Below are positions 25,504 to 28,059 of a DNA stretch of 64,000 nucleotides, one piece after another. Below the pieces are notes generated by a model. That model was not told the DNA's origin and ran no database searches. It saw only the letters and a program-made list of their open reading frames with translations. The stretch's first letter is position 1. Each line of letters starts with the position of its first letter. This DNA comes from a virus. Location: IMG/VR virus record IMGVR_UViG_3300045988_129382, positions 136,033 through 200,032 of that record; one strand, given 5' to 3'. The translations under genes and the position numbers were made by a program.

Positions 25504-25532
25504 TTGCATATGTTTAGTGTTTGTGTTAATAT
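25504..25532 (+). promoter_or_regulatory. sigma70-like promoter (TTGCAT - 17 nt - TAATAT)
   Basis: -35 at 25504-25509 and -10 at 25527-25532, 9 nt upstream of the first RNA-like module. Confidence 0.5.
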
Positions 25533-25540
25533 ATAGTCAA

Positions 25541-25618
25541 GGGTTAGGTACAGCGTATAGTATGTACATAACAACACATAGTCTACATTATTTTTCACTC
25601 CTATGTTGTACCTAACTT
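25541..25618 (+). ncRNA. stem-closed RNA-like module 1 (candidate structured ncRNA)
   Basis: GTTAGGTACA (25543-25552) pairs perfectly with TGTACCTAAC (25607-25616). TACAGC motif lies at the 5' stem end. The region has no credible ORF. Confidence 0.4.
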
Positions 25619-25639
25619 AATAATTAGCAAATGTAAATA

Positions 25640-25691
25640 AAGATGCGTACAGCAATAATTATCTGCCAGGTTTTTAGATATAAGGCATCTT
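25640..25691 (+). ncRNA. stem-closed RNA-like module 2
   Basis: AAGATGC / GCATCTT closing stem, GTACAGC immediately 3' of the 5' arm, inner hairpin TATCT..AGATA. Confidence 0.4.
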
Positions 25692-25714
25692 GTTACATAA
25701 AAAATTATATTTTA

Positions 25715-25761
25715 AAGACTCAAACAGCTAATTTATGTTGGGTATACATTAATTGAGTCTT
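25715..25761 (+). ncRNA. stem-closed RNA-like module 3
   Basis: AAGACTCA / TGAGTCTT closing stem, AACAGC after the 5' arm, inner hairpin AATTTATGT..ACATTAATT. Confidence 0.4.
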
Positions 25762-25810
25762 GTATAAAATATAGTGATAAAAATTATATATAGTGGGGTA
25801 AAAGTTATAA

Positions 25811-25871
25811 AAGACTCATACAGCAAAAACTAAAATTTTTATGCTTTGGAAAATAAAAACGACTGAGTCTT
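25811..25871 (+). ncRNA. stem-closed RNA-like module 4
   Basis: Closing stem identical to module 3 (AAGACTCA / TGAGTCTT), TACAGC after the 5' arm, inner hairpin TTTTTAT..ATAAAAA. Confidence 0.4.
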
Positions 25872-25900
25872 GTTCATAATTTAATCTCCTTTTAAATAAT

Positions 25901-26036
25901 AGACCCATACAGCTATTTATCATAATGGTTAAAAAGAAGAAACAATGGTAGATTATGCTACTGTTAACAAAACCACTTCTTGTGCTAGTAAAGGTCATAT
26001 CACAATTTTATATAAGATTTCTATTGATTTGGGTCT
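25901..26036 (+). ncRNA. stem-closed RNA-like module 5 (longest)
   Basis: AGACCCA / TGGGTCT closing stem, TACAGC after the 5' arm, inner pairing AAGAAG..TGGT / ACCA CTTCTT. Confidence 0.35.
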
Positions 26037-26118
26037 GGATGTTAAAAAATCGTAGTTTTGTTATATAATCTTAAAGATAGTGTAAGTGATATGATTTAGC
26101 ATAAGGGGTGGTTTTTTT

Positions 26119-26493
26119 ATGTCTGAAAATAATGAAAAAGAGACAAGTACATTAAAAGAGACATATACATTAGATGAAATTCTAGAGACAAATTCTATAG
26201 GGTATGAAGCTACTTTAGAGGAAATACAGAATTGTATCTTCAAGAAAGATTTTGAGAGTATTATGAATCTCCCTGAGAACTTTATTGTTGAAGGTTTGTC
26301 ATATAATGAGATGTATAATAAGTTGTTAGGTTACTATATGTTTCAGCTAACAATCTTTACTGAATCATATGAGGGTACTAAAGATTTATTAGAGTTTCTT
26401 AAAAAGCTACGTAGTATGATAGAAAAATACACTAAGCTTTTTACAGATAGATTATTAGAAGTTGGGTTAATTTTACCTAGTTATATTCATTAA
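26119..26493 (+). CDS. hypothetical protein
   Basis: RBS AAGGGGTGG. 124-aa ORF. Confidence 0.6.
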   Translation: MSENNEKETSTLKETYTLDEILETNSIGYEATLEEIQNCIFKKDFESIMNLPENFIVEGLSYNEMYNKLLGYYMFQLTIFTESYEGTKDLLEFLKKLRSMIEKYTKLFTDRLLEVGLILPSYIH

Positions 26494-26511
26494 TTATAAA
26501 GGAGATTTATT

Positions 26512-28059
26512 ATGAATGATTTTATGGAATTATTAAAAAATAATGTAAAAACTACAACTACAAATGGTGCTGTTTCTTATAAAACAACAGGTAGTGCTTT
26601 GTTAGATTTAAATAACTCAGTACCTTTGTTGCGTAATAAAGCTATTGAATATTTATCTAGTGGTAACTTAATTGCATTAGATACTGTACTTTCTTTGTTT
26701 AAAGAATCAGTTATGGAAGATGCTAACTACACAATGAAGTGGTTGATGTATCTACGTGATATTAATGATGGTTTAGGTGAGCGTTCTTCTTATCGATTAA
26801 TTCTGACTGAGATTGCTAATAATGTGCCAGAGTTAGTTTTTGCATTGTTACAAACTAAGCAACTACAGGTATTAGGTCGTTTTGATGATTTAGTTTATGT
26901 ATGGGATACTACAACAAACAAAGACTCTAAAAATTATATCTTTAATTATTTAAAATATCAGTTAAGTGAAGATATTTTAAATAATAAAAATGATGAAAGT
27001 GTATCTCTTTTAGCTAAGTGGTTGCCATCTGAAAATACTACTTCACGTAAAACTAAAAAATTAGCTACTAGAGTTAGAAAAGCTTTGGGTATGTCCTCTA
27101 AGTCTTATCGTAGAATGTTATCTGCTTTACGTAAGAACATTGATGTAGTTGAACGTAAGATGTCTAACAATCAATGGGATGAAATTAATTATCAAGGTGT
27201 TACTTCTAAGGCTAACTTAATTTATCGAAATGCGTTTATGAAGCATGATAGTGAGAGACGTTCTAAGTATTTAGAAGATTTATCTAATGGCAATGTTAAA
27301 ATCAATGCTGGTAAGATGTACTTATATGATATTATCAGTAAGTATAAAAATAGATGGGATGTTGATGAAGATGAAACATTAGAAGCTTTGTGGGATGCAC
27401 AAGAAGTACCTAAAGATTATAATGATATTTTAGTGGTACGTGATGGTAGTGGTTCTATGACAACTAGTGCTTTTGGTACAAGTGTTTCTGTGTTAGATAT
27501 TGCTGATGCATTGACAATTTATACTACACAGCATAATAATTCTGAATACTATAAAGATAAATTCATCACATTCAGTTCTAAACCAGAGATTGTTGATTTA
27601 AGTACTTGCAATACGTTACGTGATAAGCTTTCTGTATTAGATGACTATGATGATTGGTCTACAACAAATGTTGAAAGTGTGTTTGACTTAATTCTAGAAA
27701 CATCTGTTAAAAATAAAGTAGATGCTAAAGATTTACCTAGTACTGTTTTAGTTGTATCTGATATGCAGTTCAATTCTGCTATGGGTACTAATTTTAACAA
27801 TGATACTTTATTTGAAAAGATTGCTAAGAAGTTTGAATCAGTTGGGTATAAATTACCTAAGTTAGTATTTTGGAATGTGGCATCTTATAATGATACAGTA
27901 CCATTACAGAAAAATGATAATGGGTTGGTCATTATGAGTGGTTTCTCTAAAAACAATATCGATATGATTTTACATGATAACTTAGACCCGTTAGAAGTTC
28001 TAAAGGCTGAGTTAGATAGTAAATATAGCTTTATTGATACAATTATTAGTAAGTCTTAA
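26512..28059 (+). CDS. DUF2828-like helical domain + C-terminal vWA domain protein (Ro60/TROVE-like architecture)
   Basis: RBS AAGGAG. N-terminus TTNGAVSYKTTGSALLDL resembles the TENGA..SSG..LDF start of DUF2828 proteins. MIDAS motif VVRDGSGSM. The tail KLVFWNVASYNDTVPLQKNDNGLVIMSGFSKNNIDMIL parallels the human Ro60 tail [36 protein letters not shown]. Confidence 0.6.
   Translation: MNDFMELLKNNVKTTTTNGAVSYKTTGSALLDLNNSVPLLRNKAIEYLSSGNLIALDTVLSLFKESVMEDANYTMKWLMYLRDINDGLGERSSYRLILTEIANNVPELVFALLQTKQLQVLGRFDDLVYVWDTTTNKDSKNYIFNYLKYQLSEDILNNKNDESVSLLAKWLPSENTTSRKTKKLATRVRKALGMSSKSYRRMLSALRKNIDVVERKMSNNQWDEINYQGVTSKANLIYRNAFMKHDSERRSKYLEDLSNGNVKINAGKMYLYDIISKYKNRWDVDEDETLEALWDAQEVPKDYNDILVVRDGSGSMTTSAFGTSVSVLDIADALTIYTTQHNNSEYYKDKFITFSSKPEIVDLSTCNTLRDKLSVLDDYDDWSTTNVESVFDLILETSVKNKVDAKDLPSTVLVVSDMQFNSAMGTNFNNDTLFEKIAKKFESVGYKLPKLVFWNVASYNDTVPLQKNDNGLVIMSGFSKNNIDMILHDNLDPLEVLKAELDSKYSFIDTIISKS

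What the first reader, a model, noticed from the sequence alone, without database searches (positions are those of the whole stretch)
25504..28059. Five tandem stem-closed RNA-like modules with a shared ACAGC motif next to a Ro60/TROVE-like (DUF2828 + vWA) protein: candidate phage Ro / Y-RNA-like RNP locus
Seen in sequence: the 640-nt gap after the clamp-loader gene has no credible ORF. It starts with a TTGCAT-17-TAATAT promoter and then holds five successive modules at 25541-25618, 25640-25691, 25715-25761, 25811-25871 and 25901-26036. In each, a 7-12 bp perfect stem joins the two ends: GTTAGGTACA/TGTACCTAAC, AAGATGC/GCATCTT, AAGACTCA/TGAGTCTT twice, and AGACCCA/TGGGTCT. The 5' arm is followed by, or overlaps, the same (A/T)ACAGC element, and inner hairpins follow. 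The stems differ in sequence while pairing is maintained, which looks like compensatory change and argues for RNA structure rather than protein-binding DNA repeats. About 500 nt downstream lies a 515-aa protein with a DUF2828-type N-terminus and a C-terminal vWA/MIDAS domain (DGSGSM). Its tail parallels the Ro60 tail. Established knowledge: Ro60 (TROVE + vWA) binds Y RNAs, whose 5' and 3' ends form a closing stem. Bacterial rsr genes usually have Y-RNA genes within a few kb. Inference: this is a phage Ro-like protein with its own multi-copy Y-RNA-like partners. They could act in RNA quality control or decay, or as decoys. A Ro-like/Y-like pairing for the DUF2828 family would be new as far as I know.
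Basis: partly seen in the sequence, partly recalled or inferred. Interest (0 to 1): 0.85.

Follow-up and report, generated by a model that had tools for sequence, protein, structure and literature searches.

The report
New Y-RNA-like family beside Ro-like protein
A phage gap holds an array of small structured RNAs that, across hundreds of phages, bacteria and a giant virus, almost always sit beside or near a Ro60-shaped protein or inside tRNA gene arrays. This points to a widespread, apparently undescribed RNA-protein particle whose RNA looks like the orphan 'Class I' RNAs of social amoebae.

Summary

**The RNA family.** Window 25639-26037 holds four members (M2-M4 canonical, M5 extended) of a widespread small-RNA family I could not find described. 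Each has a 7-9 bp terminal stem closed by (U/A)AAG...CUUG and a variable payload of roughly 20-130 nt. An almost invariant single-stranded ACAGCAA follows the 5' arm. M1 (25541-25618) is a conserved stem-closed element of another kind.

**Association with the protein.** A covariance model finds only M2-M4 in the 64 kb window. It finds 317 more copies in 140 loci chosen only for encoding a DUF2828 protein, all on the gene's strand. Choosing loci by RNA motif alone returns DUF2828 genes and/or same-strand tRNA arrays in 34 of 39 stem-closed cases.

**The protein.** The 515-aa protein has no TROVE sequence signature, but its AlphaFold model matches only Ro60 structures significantly. Relatives sit next to RtcB or PNPase, or inside phage tRNA arrays. 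Some payloads are tRNA-like.

**Reading.** This is a Ro60/Y-RNA-like particle built from a different protein family and a different RNA family.

**Amoeba link.** The RNA layout matches dictyostelid Class I RNAs, and a model trained only on those picks out M4.

Binding and function are untested.

The parts
25504..25532 (+). Promoter-like TTGCAT-17-TAATAT with a conserved upstream A/T-rich block (25483-25509). Candidate start of the RNA-array transcript.
   Evidence: Sequence read. The pattern is located and the upstream block is unique in the window. The region is conserved in phage relatives (A6). It matches the sigma-70 consensus at only 7 of 12 positions and is not listed by the scan. Function is inferred.
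25541..25618 (+). M1: a stem-closed element with a terminal helix of up to 17 bp. It is not a member of the ACAGCAA family.
   Evidence: The consensus fold has 3 compensatory pairs. ACAGC is absent in L001 and L002. Model R1 gives no hit here.
25639..25693 (+). M2: canonical module (AAGAUGC-GU-ACAGCAAU ... GCAUCUUGU).
   Evidence: R1 scores 48.6 bits, E 4.9e-9. The orthologous stem changes to AGGCUCA/UGAGUCU in L001 and AGACUC/GAGUCU in L002.
25714..25763 (+). M3: canonical module with the ACAGCUA variant of the motif.
   Evidence: R1 scores 40.7 bits, E 3.5e-7. The 9-bp stem is seen.
25810..25873 (+). M4: canonical module (AAGACUCA-U-ACAGCAAA ... UGAGUCUUGU).
   Evidence: R1 scores 51 bits. 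M4 is the best Rfam sub-threshold hit to RF01414 Dicty_Class_I_RNA at 22.4 bits. It is also the only hit with E < 1 of the dictyostelid-only model R2 in the whole window, at 27.4 bits, E 4e-5.
25873..25897 (+). Invariant linker TTCATAATTTAATCTCCTTTTAAAT, which carries an anti-Shine-Dalgarno-like CUCCUU. Its role is unexplained.
   Evidence: It is identical in all phage relatives down to 57% protein identity. No conserved minus-strand ORF exists: 12 codons here and 2 in L002.
25900..26037 (+). M5: extended module. It has the same handle (UAGACCCA-U-ACAGCUA ... UGGGUCUG) with a 138-nt body holding several inner hairpins.
   Evidence: The consensus fold has compensatory changes in the terminal stem (CCC/GGG to CGC/GCG in L001) and in inner hairpins. 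The L002 copy closes as AAGACCC/GGGUCUUGU. R1 matches only the 5' part, at 12.7 bits.
26042..26069 (+). Second promoter-like site, TTAAAA-16-TATAAT, ahead of the protein genes.
   Evidence: Listed by the scan (10 of 12 matches). Partly conserved in relatives. Function is inferred.
26119..26493 (+). Conserved 124-aa gene of unknown function between the RNA array and the Ro-like gene. It is specific to this phage clade.
   Evidence: 53-89% identity in L001-L003. No Pfam or PHROG family. Unrelated to the 114-aa ORF at the Veillonella locus.
26512..28059 (+). Ro60-fold protein: DUF2828 (helical repeat part) plus DUF7788 (vWA with an intact MIDAS: D311, S313, S315, T385, D417).
   Evidence: Pfam and PHROG 850. 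Invariant columns. AlphaFold2 model. Foldseek PDB top five hits are all Ro60. BFVD hits are DUF2828/DUF7788 proteins of phages and giant viruses plus a crAss-like TROVE protein.

Best explanation
The gap encodes a co-transcribed array of small non-coding RNAs (M2-M5, probably with M1 as a leader element). These are the RNA partners of the downstream Ro60-fold protein.

Each RNA has a constant 'handle' and a variable 'payload' loop. The handle is a terminal stem closed by AAG...CUUG, with single-stranded ACAGCAA immediately 3' of the 5' arm.

**Inferred by analogy with Ro60/Y RNA.** The protein grips the handle. Ro60 reads mainly the 5' strand of the Y RNA stem. The payload would gate the protein's RNA-binding ring or tether it to other factors or substrates.

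**What the genomic company points to.** It suggests tRNA/RNA surveillance or repair during infection, for example handling RNAs cut by host nucleases, or hijacking a host exonuclease as phage phiLo Ro60 does. The company consists of tRNA arrays in most other phages, RtcB in Ruminococcus and Listeria phage, PNPase in Veillonella, and tRNA-like payloads in Akkermansia.

**Shown here.** The family exists, the stem covaries, it is strictly linked by strand and position to DUF2828 genes, and the protein has a Ro60 fold.

**Inferred only.** Binding, processing into separate RNAs, and biological role.
For: **Forward association**
- R1 gives 169 hits in 80 genome loci and 148 in 60 viral loci, 317 of 317 on the gene's strand. 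They cluster within about 800 nt upstream of the gene or just after its stop, in 75 of 80 and 55 of 60 loci.
- Only M2-M4 are found in the 64 kb window.

**Non-circular motif test**
- ACAGCA occurs at 3.77 per kb upstream versus 0.46 per kb elsewhere. A closing stem of at least 7 bp is present in 79% versus 21%.

**Covariation**
- In 109 distinct non-seed copies, all 8 pairs show double changes. 94.3% of cells are paired versus 29-51% in slid registers. ACAGCAA and the G after the 3' arm are near-invariant.
- G-U pairs occur on the + strand only.

**Reverse association**
- 120 IMG/VR loci were picked by motif alone. Of the 39 with a closing stem, 15 have DUF2828 on the same strand and 27 have same-strand tRNAs (147 same-strand tRNAs versus 0 opposite). 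Only 5 have neither. Of the 81 without a stem, 2 have DUF2828.

**Fold**
- The five significant PDB matches are all Ro60.

**Context**
- RtcB flanks the locus in R. flavefaciens and lies about 1.3-2.5 kb downstream in Listeria phage LMTA-148.
- The Veillonella locus is rpsO-pnp-dut-[RNAs]-DUF2828, with a perfect TTGACA-17-TATAAT promoter and terminator-like hairpins around the RNAs.
- Modules are interleaved with tRNA genes at tRNA-like spacing.
- The long Akkermansia modules give YrlA sub-threshold hits through T and D arms.

**Precedent**
- Phage phiLo Ro60 has Yrl1 and Yrl2 upstream of its gene and forms a RYPER-like complex with host PNPase (PMC12135203).
Against: - There are no expression, processing or binding data for any member.
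- No intrinsic terminator lies between the array and the downstream genes in this phage, so the modules could remain part of the mRNA leader.
- The protein has no sequence-level link to Ro60/TROVE. Foldseek TM-scores are moderate (0.31-0.58).
- Some phages with the protein gave no or only weak model hits nearby: Vibrio ValKK3, Felixounavirus VpaE1 and Fusobacterium phiKSUM. Ten of the 140 loci had no hit.
- Many modules sit in tRNA arrays with no DUF2828 gene in the DNA held, so the partnership need not be exclusive.
- Loci are phylogenetically clustered, so counts overstate independence.
Confidence: 0.8

Rival explanations
1. The modules are cis-acting leader elements of the DUF2828 mRNA. For example, they could be repeated binding sites through which the protein autoregulates its own translation or stability. 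On this reading they are not free-standing trans-acting RNAs.
For: They are mostly upstream of the gene and always on its strand. This phage has no terminator between the array and the downstream genes. The invariant linker carries an anti-Shine-Dalgarno-like CUCCUU.
Against: - In several loci the modules lie downstream of the gene: L060, L061, L064, L101, phage 6ec and LeBron.
- In many phages and in a giant virus they are interleaved with tRNA genes far from any DUF2828 start.
- The Veillonella array has its own consensus promoter and terminator-like hairpins before the gene.
- An unrelated conserved gene separates the array from the DUF2828 gene here.
- The Akkermansia copies resemble YrlA, a family of stable RNAs.
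Confidence: 0.07
2. The modules are small RNAs or processing elements of viral tRNA arrays, for instance decoys or substrates of tRNA enzymes. They do not bind the DUF2828 protein. The two simply share a genomic neighbourhood and expression programme.
For: 27 of 39 motif-selected stem-closed copies are in same-strand tRNA arrays, and 19 of those have no DUF2828 gene in the held stretch. 30 of 38 distant phage loci have the DUF2828 gene itself inside a tRNA array.
Against: - Adjacency persists where no tRNA genes were found or noted. The window has none in 64 kb, and none were noted at the Veillonella, Ruminococcus or Akkermansia chromosomal loci.
- Within 7.5 kb loci the hits pile up within a few hundred nt of the gene.
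- A Ro60-fold protein is exactly the kind of protein known to bind stem-closed RNAs encoded next to it.
Confidence: 0.1
3. The repeats act at the DNA level, as a replication origin, recombination sites or protein-binding inverted repeats.
For: The region is A/T-rich and intergenic, next to replication genes, and holds several inverted repeats.
Against: - Strand specificity is absolute: 317 of 317 hits on the gene's strand.
- G-U pairs work only on the + strand transcript.
- The loops are long and variable while a single-stranded motif is invariant.
- The same elements occur in bacterial chromosomes, phages of many families and a giant virus, always in transcription units.
Confidence: 0.01

Closest known systems
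Bacterial Ro60 (Rsr) with YrlA/YrlB Y RNAs, including the rsr-yrlBA-rtcBA RNA repair operon (Chen et al. 2014, PMC4201824)
   Same: - A ring-plus-vWA protein with one to several small RNA genes within a few kb on the same strand.
- The RNA ends pair into a stem, with a conserved protein-binding motif on the 5' strand.
- Some payloads mimic tRNA T and D arms.
- Neighbours include RtcB and PNPase.
   Different: - The protein is PF11443/PF25043, with no TROVE hit in 30 members and 12-16% identity in structural alignments.
- The handle motif is ACAGCAA, not GNCGAA or GGUCCGA.
- Most copies are 47-70 nt with no tRNA-like domain.
- No window module reaches even a weak YrlA hit.
- Arrays of up to 5-7 copies occur, often embedded in viral tRNA arrays.
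Thermus phage phiLo Ro60 with Yrl1/Yrl2 (PMC12135203; PDB 9L5Y)
   Same: It is a phage-encoded Ro-type protein with Y-like RNA genes directly upstream of its gene. It is the best structural match of the model: E 1.9e-7, TM 0.53/0.58 over 523 columns.
   Different: phiLo Ro60 is a recognisable Ro60 homolog whose RNAs carry the CGAA motif. Here both the protein family and the RNA motif differ, and nothing has been tested biochemically.
Dictyostelid Class I RNAs (Rfam RF01414; Kjellin et al. 2021, PMC7919456)
   Same: - Length of 42-65 nt.
- A short terminal stem that covaries.
- Conserved start AAG and end CUGU.
- A conserved single-stranded motif, CCUUACAGCAA, abutting the 5' arm.
- The rest of the RNA is variable.
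- Genes occur in clusters.
- A few members carry GGUUCGAnUCC T-arm-like hairpins.
- A model built only from 39 Class I RNAs finds M4 (27.4 bits, E 4e-5) and phage 6ec modules (22 bits, E 5e-4). 14 of its top 18 hits in 99 kb are DUF2828-flanking modules.
   Different: - Class I RNAs are eukaryotic, transcribed from individual genes with a DUSE promoter.
- The stem is 6 bp and the end reads CUGU, against CUUGU here.
- They are reported as unique to dictyostelids, and the only named binding protein is the RRM protein Rnp1A.
- The Rfam gathering score is not reached: 22.4 versus 41.5 bits.
- I could not find out whether dictyostelids encode a DUF2828 protein.
Type III toxin-antitoxin loci (ToxIN type). 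This comparison rests on my own knowledge.
   Same: A tandem array of small structured RNAs lies directly upstream of a protein gene on the same strand, sometimes with a terminator in between. The LeBron homolog gp53 is toxic when overexpressed alone.
   Different: ToxI repeats are near-identical direct repeats cut by the toxin RNase. Here the copies differ in sequence apart from the handle, and the protein has a Ro60 fold with vWA/MIDAS and no nuclease domain.

Membership tests
Ro60/TROVE protein family | TROVE (PF05731) sequence signature, or detectable sequence homology to Ro60 | tested here: not met
   No TROVE hit for the window protein or any of 30 relatives, even at E <= 10. The Ro60 vWA model scores only 13 bits against a cut-off of 27.7. 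phmmer and a profile search against PDB sequences found nothing.
Ro60/TROVE protein family | Fold: helical-repeat ring followed by a vWA domain with a MIDAS | tested here: met
   AlphaFold2 model with pLDDT 78.8. The only PDB matches with E <= 1e-3 are five Ro60 chains aligned over the full length. DxSxS...T...D is invariant. This rests on a predicted model, not a solved structure.
Ro60/Y RNA ribonucleoprotein (system level) | Small RNA genes within a few kb on the same strand as the protein gene | tested here: met
   M2-M5 lie 475-870 nt upstream of the gene. 130 of 140 related loci have model hits, and 317 of 317 hits are on the gene's strand.
Ro60/Y RNA ribonucleoprotein (system level) | RNA 5' and 3' ends form a stem carrying the conserved Ro-binding motif (GGUCCGA / GNCGAA) | tested here: not met
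   The terminal stem is present and covaries, but the conserved motif is ACAGCAA. No CGAA-type motif is conserved.
Ro60/Y RNA ribonucleoprotein (system level) | Physical binding of the RNA by the protein | not testable with these tools
   This needs RIP/CLIP, EMSA or a structure.
YrlA (Rfam RF02553) | tRNA-like T and D arms, and a score at or above the gathering threshold (69 bits) | tested here: not met
   No YrlA hit in the window, even at E <= 10. The long Akkermansia relatives reach 40, 33 and 24 bits through T and D arms.
Dictyostelid Class I RNA (Rfam RF01414) | Terminal stem, AAG start, CUGU end, 11-nt CCUUACAGCAA next to the 5' arm, 42-65 nt | tested here: inconclusive
   The layout and 7 of 11 motif positions are shared, rising to 10 of 11 in phage 6ec. 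M4 scores 22.4 bits against a gathering score of 41.5. My Class-I-only model gives 27.4 bits, E 4e-5. The other window modules are not detected by it.
Dictyostelid Class I RNA (Rfam RF01414) | Eukaryotic gene with a DUSE promoter about 60 nt upstream; restricted to Dictyostelia | tested here: not met
   The window is a T4-like phage with Shine-Dalgarno sites, Gp23 capsid and T4 portal. Membership in the strict sense is therefore excluded. Common descent or a common partner is not excluded.
DUF2828/DUF7788 (PF11443 + PF25043; phrog_850) | Both Pfam domains above their gathering scores | tested here: met
   136 bits and 92.3 bits against cut-offs of 27.1 and 29. phrog_850 matches at 1.7e-116.

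The most novel reading that the evidence does not exclude
The 'ACAGCAA-handle' RNAs of bacteria, phages and giant viruses and the Class I RNAs of dictyostelid social amoebae are one RNA family. That family's core partner would be a DUF2828-type Ro60-fold protein.

If so, Class I RNAs are the amoebal equivalent of Y RNAs. They are abundant, developmentally regulated, of unknown mechanism, and reported as unique to Dictyostelia. They would have come from, or be shared with, bacterial or viral RNA-surveillance systems tied to tRNA biology.
Probability: 0.3. Interest if true: 0.92.

Novelty: new variant of a known kind. Interest (0 to 1): 0.85.

Why it matters
[quoted passage not shown] The DUF2828 family is large. 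It has 8604 clusters at 50% identity and occurs in 707 GenBank phage records. These include Felix O1-like, P100/A511-like, KVP40-like, 6ec-like and cluster L mycobacteriophages, Bacillus and Enterococcus phages, and a Lak megaphage. Until now it was an 'RNA-binding protein' with no known RNA.

**Testability.** Pairing it with a defined, easily recognised RNA handle gives a concrete hypothesis in cultured systems. It also explains conserved 'empty' spacers in phage and giant-virus tRNA arrays. And it links the family to RNA repair (RtcB) and decay (PNPase), and so possibly to phage counter-defence against tRNA-cutting nucleases.

**Amoeba link.** If the resemblance to dictyostelid Class I RNAs reflects a shared partner, a twenty-year-old orphan RNA class gains a candidate protein and mechanism.

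Tried and rejected
**Searches that found nothing**
- Rfam at gathering thresholds on the whole window: nothing.
- ARAGORN on the window: no tRNA or tmRNA, so the modules are not tRNA genes.
- blastn of the gap against GenBank phages: no match.
- Sequence searches of the protein and of its family profile against PDB: nothing.

**Hypotheses rejected**
- A minus-strand gene starting at the perfect AAGGAG-8-ATG inside the invariant linker. The ORF is 12 codons here and 2 in L002.
- Homology between the phage 124-aa ORF and the 114-aa ORF at the Veillonella locus: none.

**A circularity I corrected**
- My first regex-and-stem detector gave many 6-7 bp chance hits on both strands. The seed set chosen with it makes the first covariation count partly circular.
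- I therefore added a motif-only test, searches of loci not used as seeds and a reverse search from the motif.

**Attempts to learn whether dictyostelids encode DUF2828**
- Literature terms DUF2828 and PF11443.
- Peptide motifs in the partial proteomes held as supplements.
- Names of long family representatives.
- None was informative.

**Papers not held**
- Avesson et al. 2011, on the four Class I RNA-binding proteins, is not held under the DOI I used.
- Burroughs & Aravind 2016, on RNA repair systems, was not retrievable under the PMC id I recalled.
- A prior mention of this pairing in either cannot be excluded.

**Left unused**
- The third homologous-protein search, because it had little chance of reaching eukaryotic members.

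
Full report
**What is in the window.**
- The window is part of a T4-like, roughly 200 kb phage. It has a T4-type portal, prohead protease and Gp23 capsid protein, and Shine-Dalgarno sites. Its closest relatives are 160-215 kb contigs from metagenomes.
- The host is probably a Negativicute such as Veillonella. This is a weak inference from a YadA+SLH adhesin gene and from a 46%-identical chromosomal Veillonella homolog of the protein.
- Between the intein-containing clamp-loader gene (23134-25473) and a conserved 124-aa gene (26119-26493) lies a 645-nt gap with only 32-60 aa ORFs.
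- The TTGCAT-17-TAATAT site exists and is conserved, but it is a weak sigma-70 match.

**Conservation in related phages.**
- Synteny (clamp loader, gap, small ORF, DUF2828, sigma-like gene, then portal further on) holds in relatives with 89%, 70% and 57% protein identity.
- The gap keeps the same modules with compensatory changes at orthologous positions. M5 changes from AGACCCA/UGGGUCU to AGACGCA/UGCGUCU. M2 changes to AGGCUCA/UGAGUCU, with a G-U pair, and to AGACUC/GAGUCU.
- M1 keeps a long terminal helix but loses ACAGC, so it is a different element.
- A 25-nt linker between M4 and M5 is invariant and unexplained.

**The modules belong to a large family tied to DUF2828 genes.**
- A chromosomal Veillonella homolog has two such modules upstream. 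They sit behind a perfect TTGACA-17-TATAAT promoter and are followed by terminator-like hairpins.
- I fetched 80 loci from one genome per species (Veillonella, Ruminococcus, Akkermansia, Treponema, Lachnospiraceae, Bacilli, a cyanobacterium, gammaproteobacteria) and 60 further IMG/VR loci. They were chosen only for encoding a relative of the protein.
- A covariance model (R1) built from 32 modules finds only M2, M3 and M4 in the whole window (51, 48.6 and 40.7 bits; next best 17.6).
- R1 finds 169 and 148 hits at E <= 0.01 in the two locus sets, in 75 of 80 and 55 of 60 loci. All 317 hits are on the gene's strand. They cluster just upstream of the gene, or in some lineages just downstream.
- Because my seeds had been chosen with a stem filter, I added tests that do not depend on it:
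  - ACAGCA alone is 8 times denser in the 900 nt upstream. There 79% of occurrences have a closing stem of at least 7 bp, against 21% elsewhere.
  - In 109 distinct non-seed copies, all eight stem pairs show double changes. 94.3% of cells are paired, against 29-51% in shifted registers. ACAGCAA and the G after the 3' arm are essentially invariant.
- The consensus is 5'-(A/U)AAG(A/G)C-N-C-NN-ACAGCAA-(payload)-G-N-G(U/C)CUU-G-3'.

**Reverse test.**
- 39 of them have a closing stem. Of these, 15 carry a DUF2828 relative on the same strand and 27 have same-strand tRNA genes within 1.5 kb (147 same-strand tRNAs, none opposite). Only 5 have neither.
- Of the 81 without a stem, 2 have DUF2828.
- So the RNA predicts the protein and/or a viral tRNA array.
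- In 30 of 38 distant phage loci the DUF2828 gene itself lies inside a same-strand tRNA array. There the modules occupy slots between tRNAs at tRNA-like spacing. This argues for co-transcription and release by tRNA-processing nucleases (inference).
- The association with the protein is not a by-product of tRNA arrays. It persists in this window, which has no tRNA genes. It also persists at chromosomal loci where none were noted.

**The protein.**
- It is PF11443 plus PF25043 and phrog_850 'RNA-binding protein'.
- No TROVE signature or PDB sequence match was found, even with a family profile.
- An AlphaFold2 model (30-sequence alignment, pLDDT 78.8, pTM 0.64) has five PDB matches at E <= 1e-3. 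All five are Ro60, aligned end to end. They are phiLo phage Ro60 (two chains; best E 1.9e-7, TM 0.53/0.58), Xenopus Ro, the Ro60/pre-5S complex and Deinococcus Rsr. The next matches are vWA domains only.
- The MIDAS residues are invariant.
- The family is very large. It has 8604 clusters at 50% identity and occurs in 707 GenBank phage records and in giant viruses.
- Some phage annotators already call it 'Ro-like RNA-binding protein'. None of the literature I could search mentions partner RNAs.

**Functional company.**
- R. flavefaciens: RtcB, then a 540-nt RNA gap, then DUF2828, then a second RtcB on the opposite strand.
- Listeria phage LMTA-148: modules, then DUF2828, then split RtcB genes about 1.3-2.5 kb downstream.
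- Veillonella: the locus follows rpsO-pnp-dut.
- The long Akkermansia modules carry T- and D-arm mimics and hit YrlA below threshold at 40, 33 and 24 bits.
- Some Ruminococcus modules carry GGUUCGACUCC.
- Lachnospira L066 has tRNA-like genes with the handle motif inside an insert.
- This mirrors canonical Ro60/YrlA/RtcB/PNPase biology. No RtcB was found among the 37 window ORFs I scanned.

**Cultured phages.** R1 finds modules next to the gene in several cultured phages:
- Staphylococcus phage 6ec: three copies, 42, 38.9 and 22 bits. Two read CUUACAGCAA.
- Bacillus phage PBC2: seven copies.
- Listeria phage LMTA-148: two hits at E < 0.01 and a third weak one (E 0.44).
- Mycobacteriophage LeBron: 27.5 bits.
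- Felixounavirus VpaE1 and Fusobacterium phiKSUM give only weak hits, and Vibrio ValKK3 gives none.

**The Class I RNA connection.**
- The best, sub-threshold Rfam match of the gap was RF01414, Dictyostelium Class I RNA (22.4 bits).
- The published description fits the modules point by point: 42-65 nt, a covarying terminal stem, start AAG, end CUGU, an 11-nt CCUUACAGCAA next to the 5' arm, and a variable remainder.
- I built a model from 39 Class I RNAs of six dictyostelids only.
  - Over the whole window with filters off, its single hit with E < 1 is M4 (27.4 bits, E 4e-5).
  - In 99 kb of other loci, 14 of its top 18 hits are DUF2828-flanking modules.
  - It scores the phage 6ec modules at 22 bits (E 5e-4).
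- Several Class I RNAs carry T-arm-like hairpins (asu_can_20, ppa_can_99, DpuR-22).
- A giant-virus contig carries three modules interleaved with tRNA-Leu and tRNA-Arg genes (R1 42-43 bits). Its identity rests on an NCLDV capsid and RNA polymerase subunits.
- So the family reaches viruses of eukaryotes.
- Whether dictyostelids have a DUF2828 protein could not be established. The link stays a hypothesis with probability about 0.3.

**Verdict.**
- The finding is real.
- The best explanation is a Ro60-like/Y-RNA-like ribonucleoprotein made of a distinct protein family and a distinct, apparently undescribed RNA family. Confidence is 0.8 for the partnership and much lower for any specific biological role.
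- It works like Ro60/Y RNA but fails the sequence-level membership tests on both the protein and the RNA side. I therefore rate it a new variant of a known kind, with high interest.

Noticed in passing
window 25873-25897: A 25-nt linker, TTCATAATTTAATCTCCTTTTAAAT, lies between M4 and M5. It is invariant in all phage relatives down to 57% protein identity, so it is better conserved than the RNA modules. On the + strand it carries an anti-Shine-Dalgarno-like CUCCUU. On the minus strand it reads as a perfect RBS plus ATG, but no conserved ORF follows.
   Followed up: partly
window 16-14511: About 19 consecutive same-strand ORFs of 224-288 aa form what looks like a tandem paralogue array. The three I tested have no Pfam family.
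   Followed up: partly
window 23134-25473; also L003 7431-9554: The clamp-loader gene carries an intein (PF14890, residues 60-473). A relative also has an intein plus LAGLIDADG in the MJ0330_N-like gene downstream.
   Followed up: no
window 19824-22643: A phage-encoded 939-aa protein has YadA head, stalk and anchor domains plus an S-layer homology domain. This is a Negativicutes-type trimeric adhesin and hints at a Veillonella-like host.
   Followed up: no
window 56157-57275: A TnpB-type gene (OrfB_IS605 plus Cas12f1-like TNB domain) sits inside the phage genome. I did not look for an associated guide RNA.
   Followed up: no
window 40382-43900 and 46232-47959: A 1172-aa AAA+ (dynein/MoxR-like) protein is followed two genes later by a second, unrelated vWA-domain protein. 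This may be a MoxR-vWA pair in the structural region.
   Followed up: no
L066 2251-2365 and 2523-2656 (Lachnospira MAG): Two tRNA-like genes (Rfam tRNA 47 and 41 bits) are interleaved with canonical modules upstream of a DUF2828 gene. Each has a long insert in the anticodon region that itself contains the handle motif (CUCGCACAGCAAU and CUCAAACUGCAAU).
   Followed up: partly
L201 1-760, minus strand (IMGVR GVMAG-M-3300017963-53): A giant-virus contig (NCLDV capsid, Rpb5 and Rpb3/11 genes) has a thrice-repeated unit of one ACAGCAA module plus tRNA-Leu and other tRNA genes. No DUF2828 gene lies in the 11 kb held.
   Followed up: partly
L125 4225-8727 (Ruminococcus flavefaciens YL228): The DUF2828 gene and its RNA array are flanked by two RtcB genes, inside what looks like a defence island with type I restriction-modification genes on both sides.
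   Followed up: partly
L187 (Mycobacterium phage LeBron) 4419-4779: The gp53-gp54 gap holds one significant and one weak module hit. A 2026 screen reports the homolog gp53 as toxic to M. smegmatis when overexpressed alone. That would fit a protein normally held in check by its RNAs.
   Followed up: no
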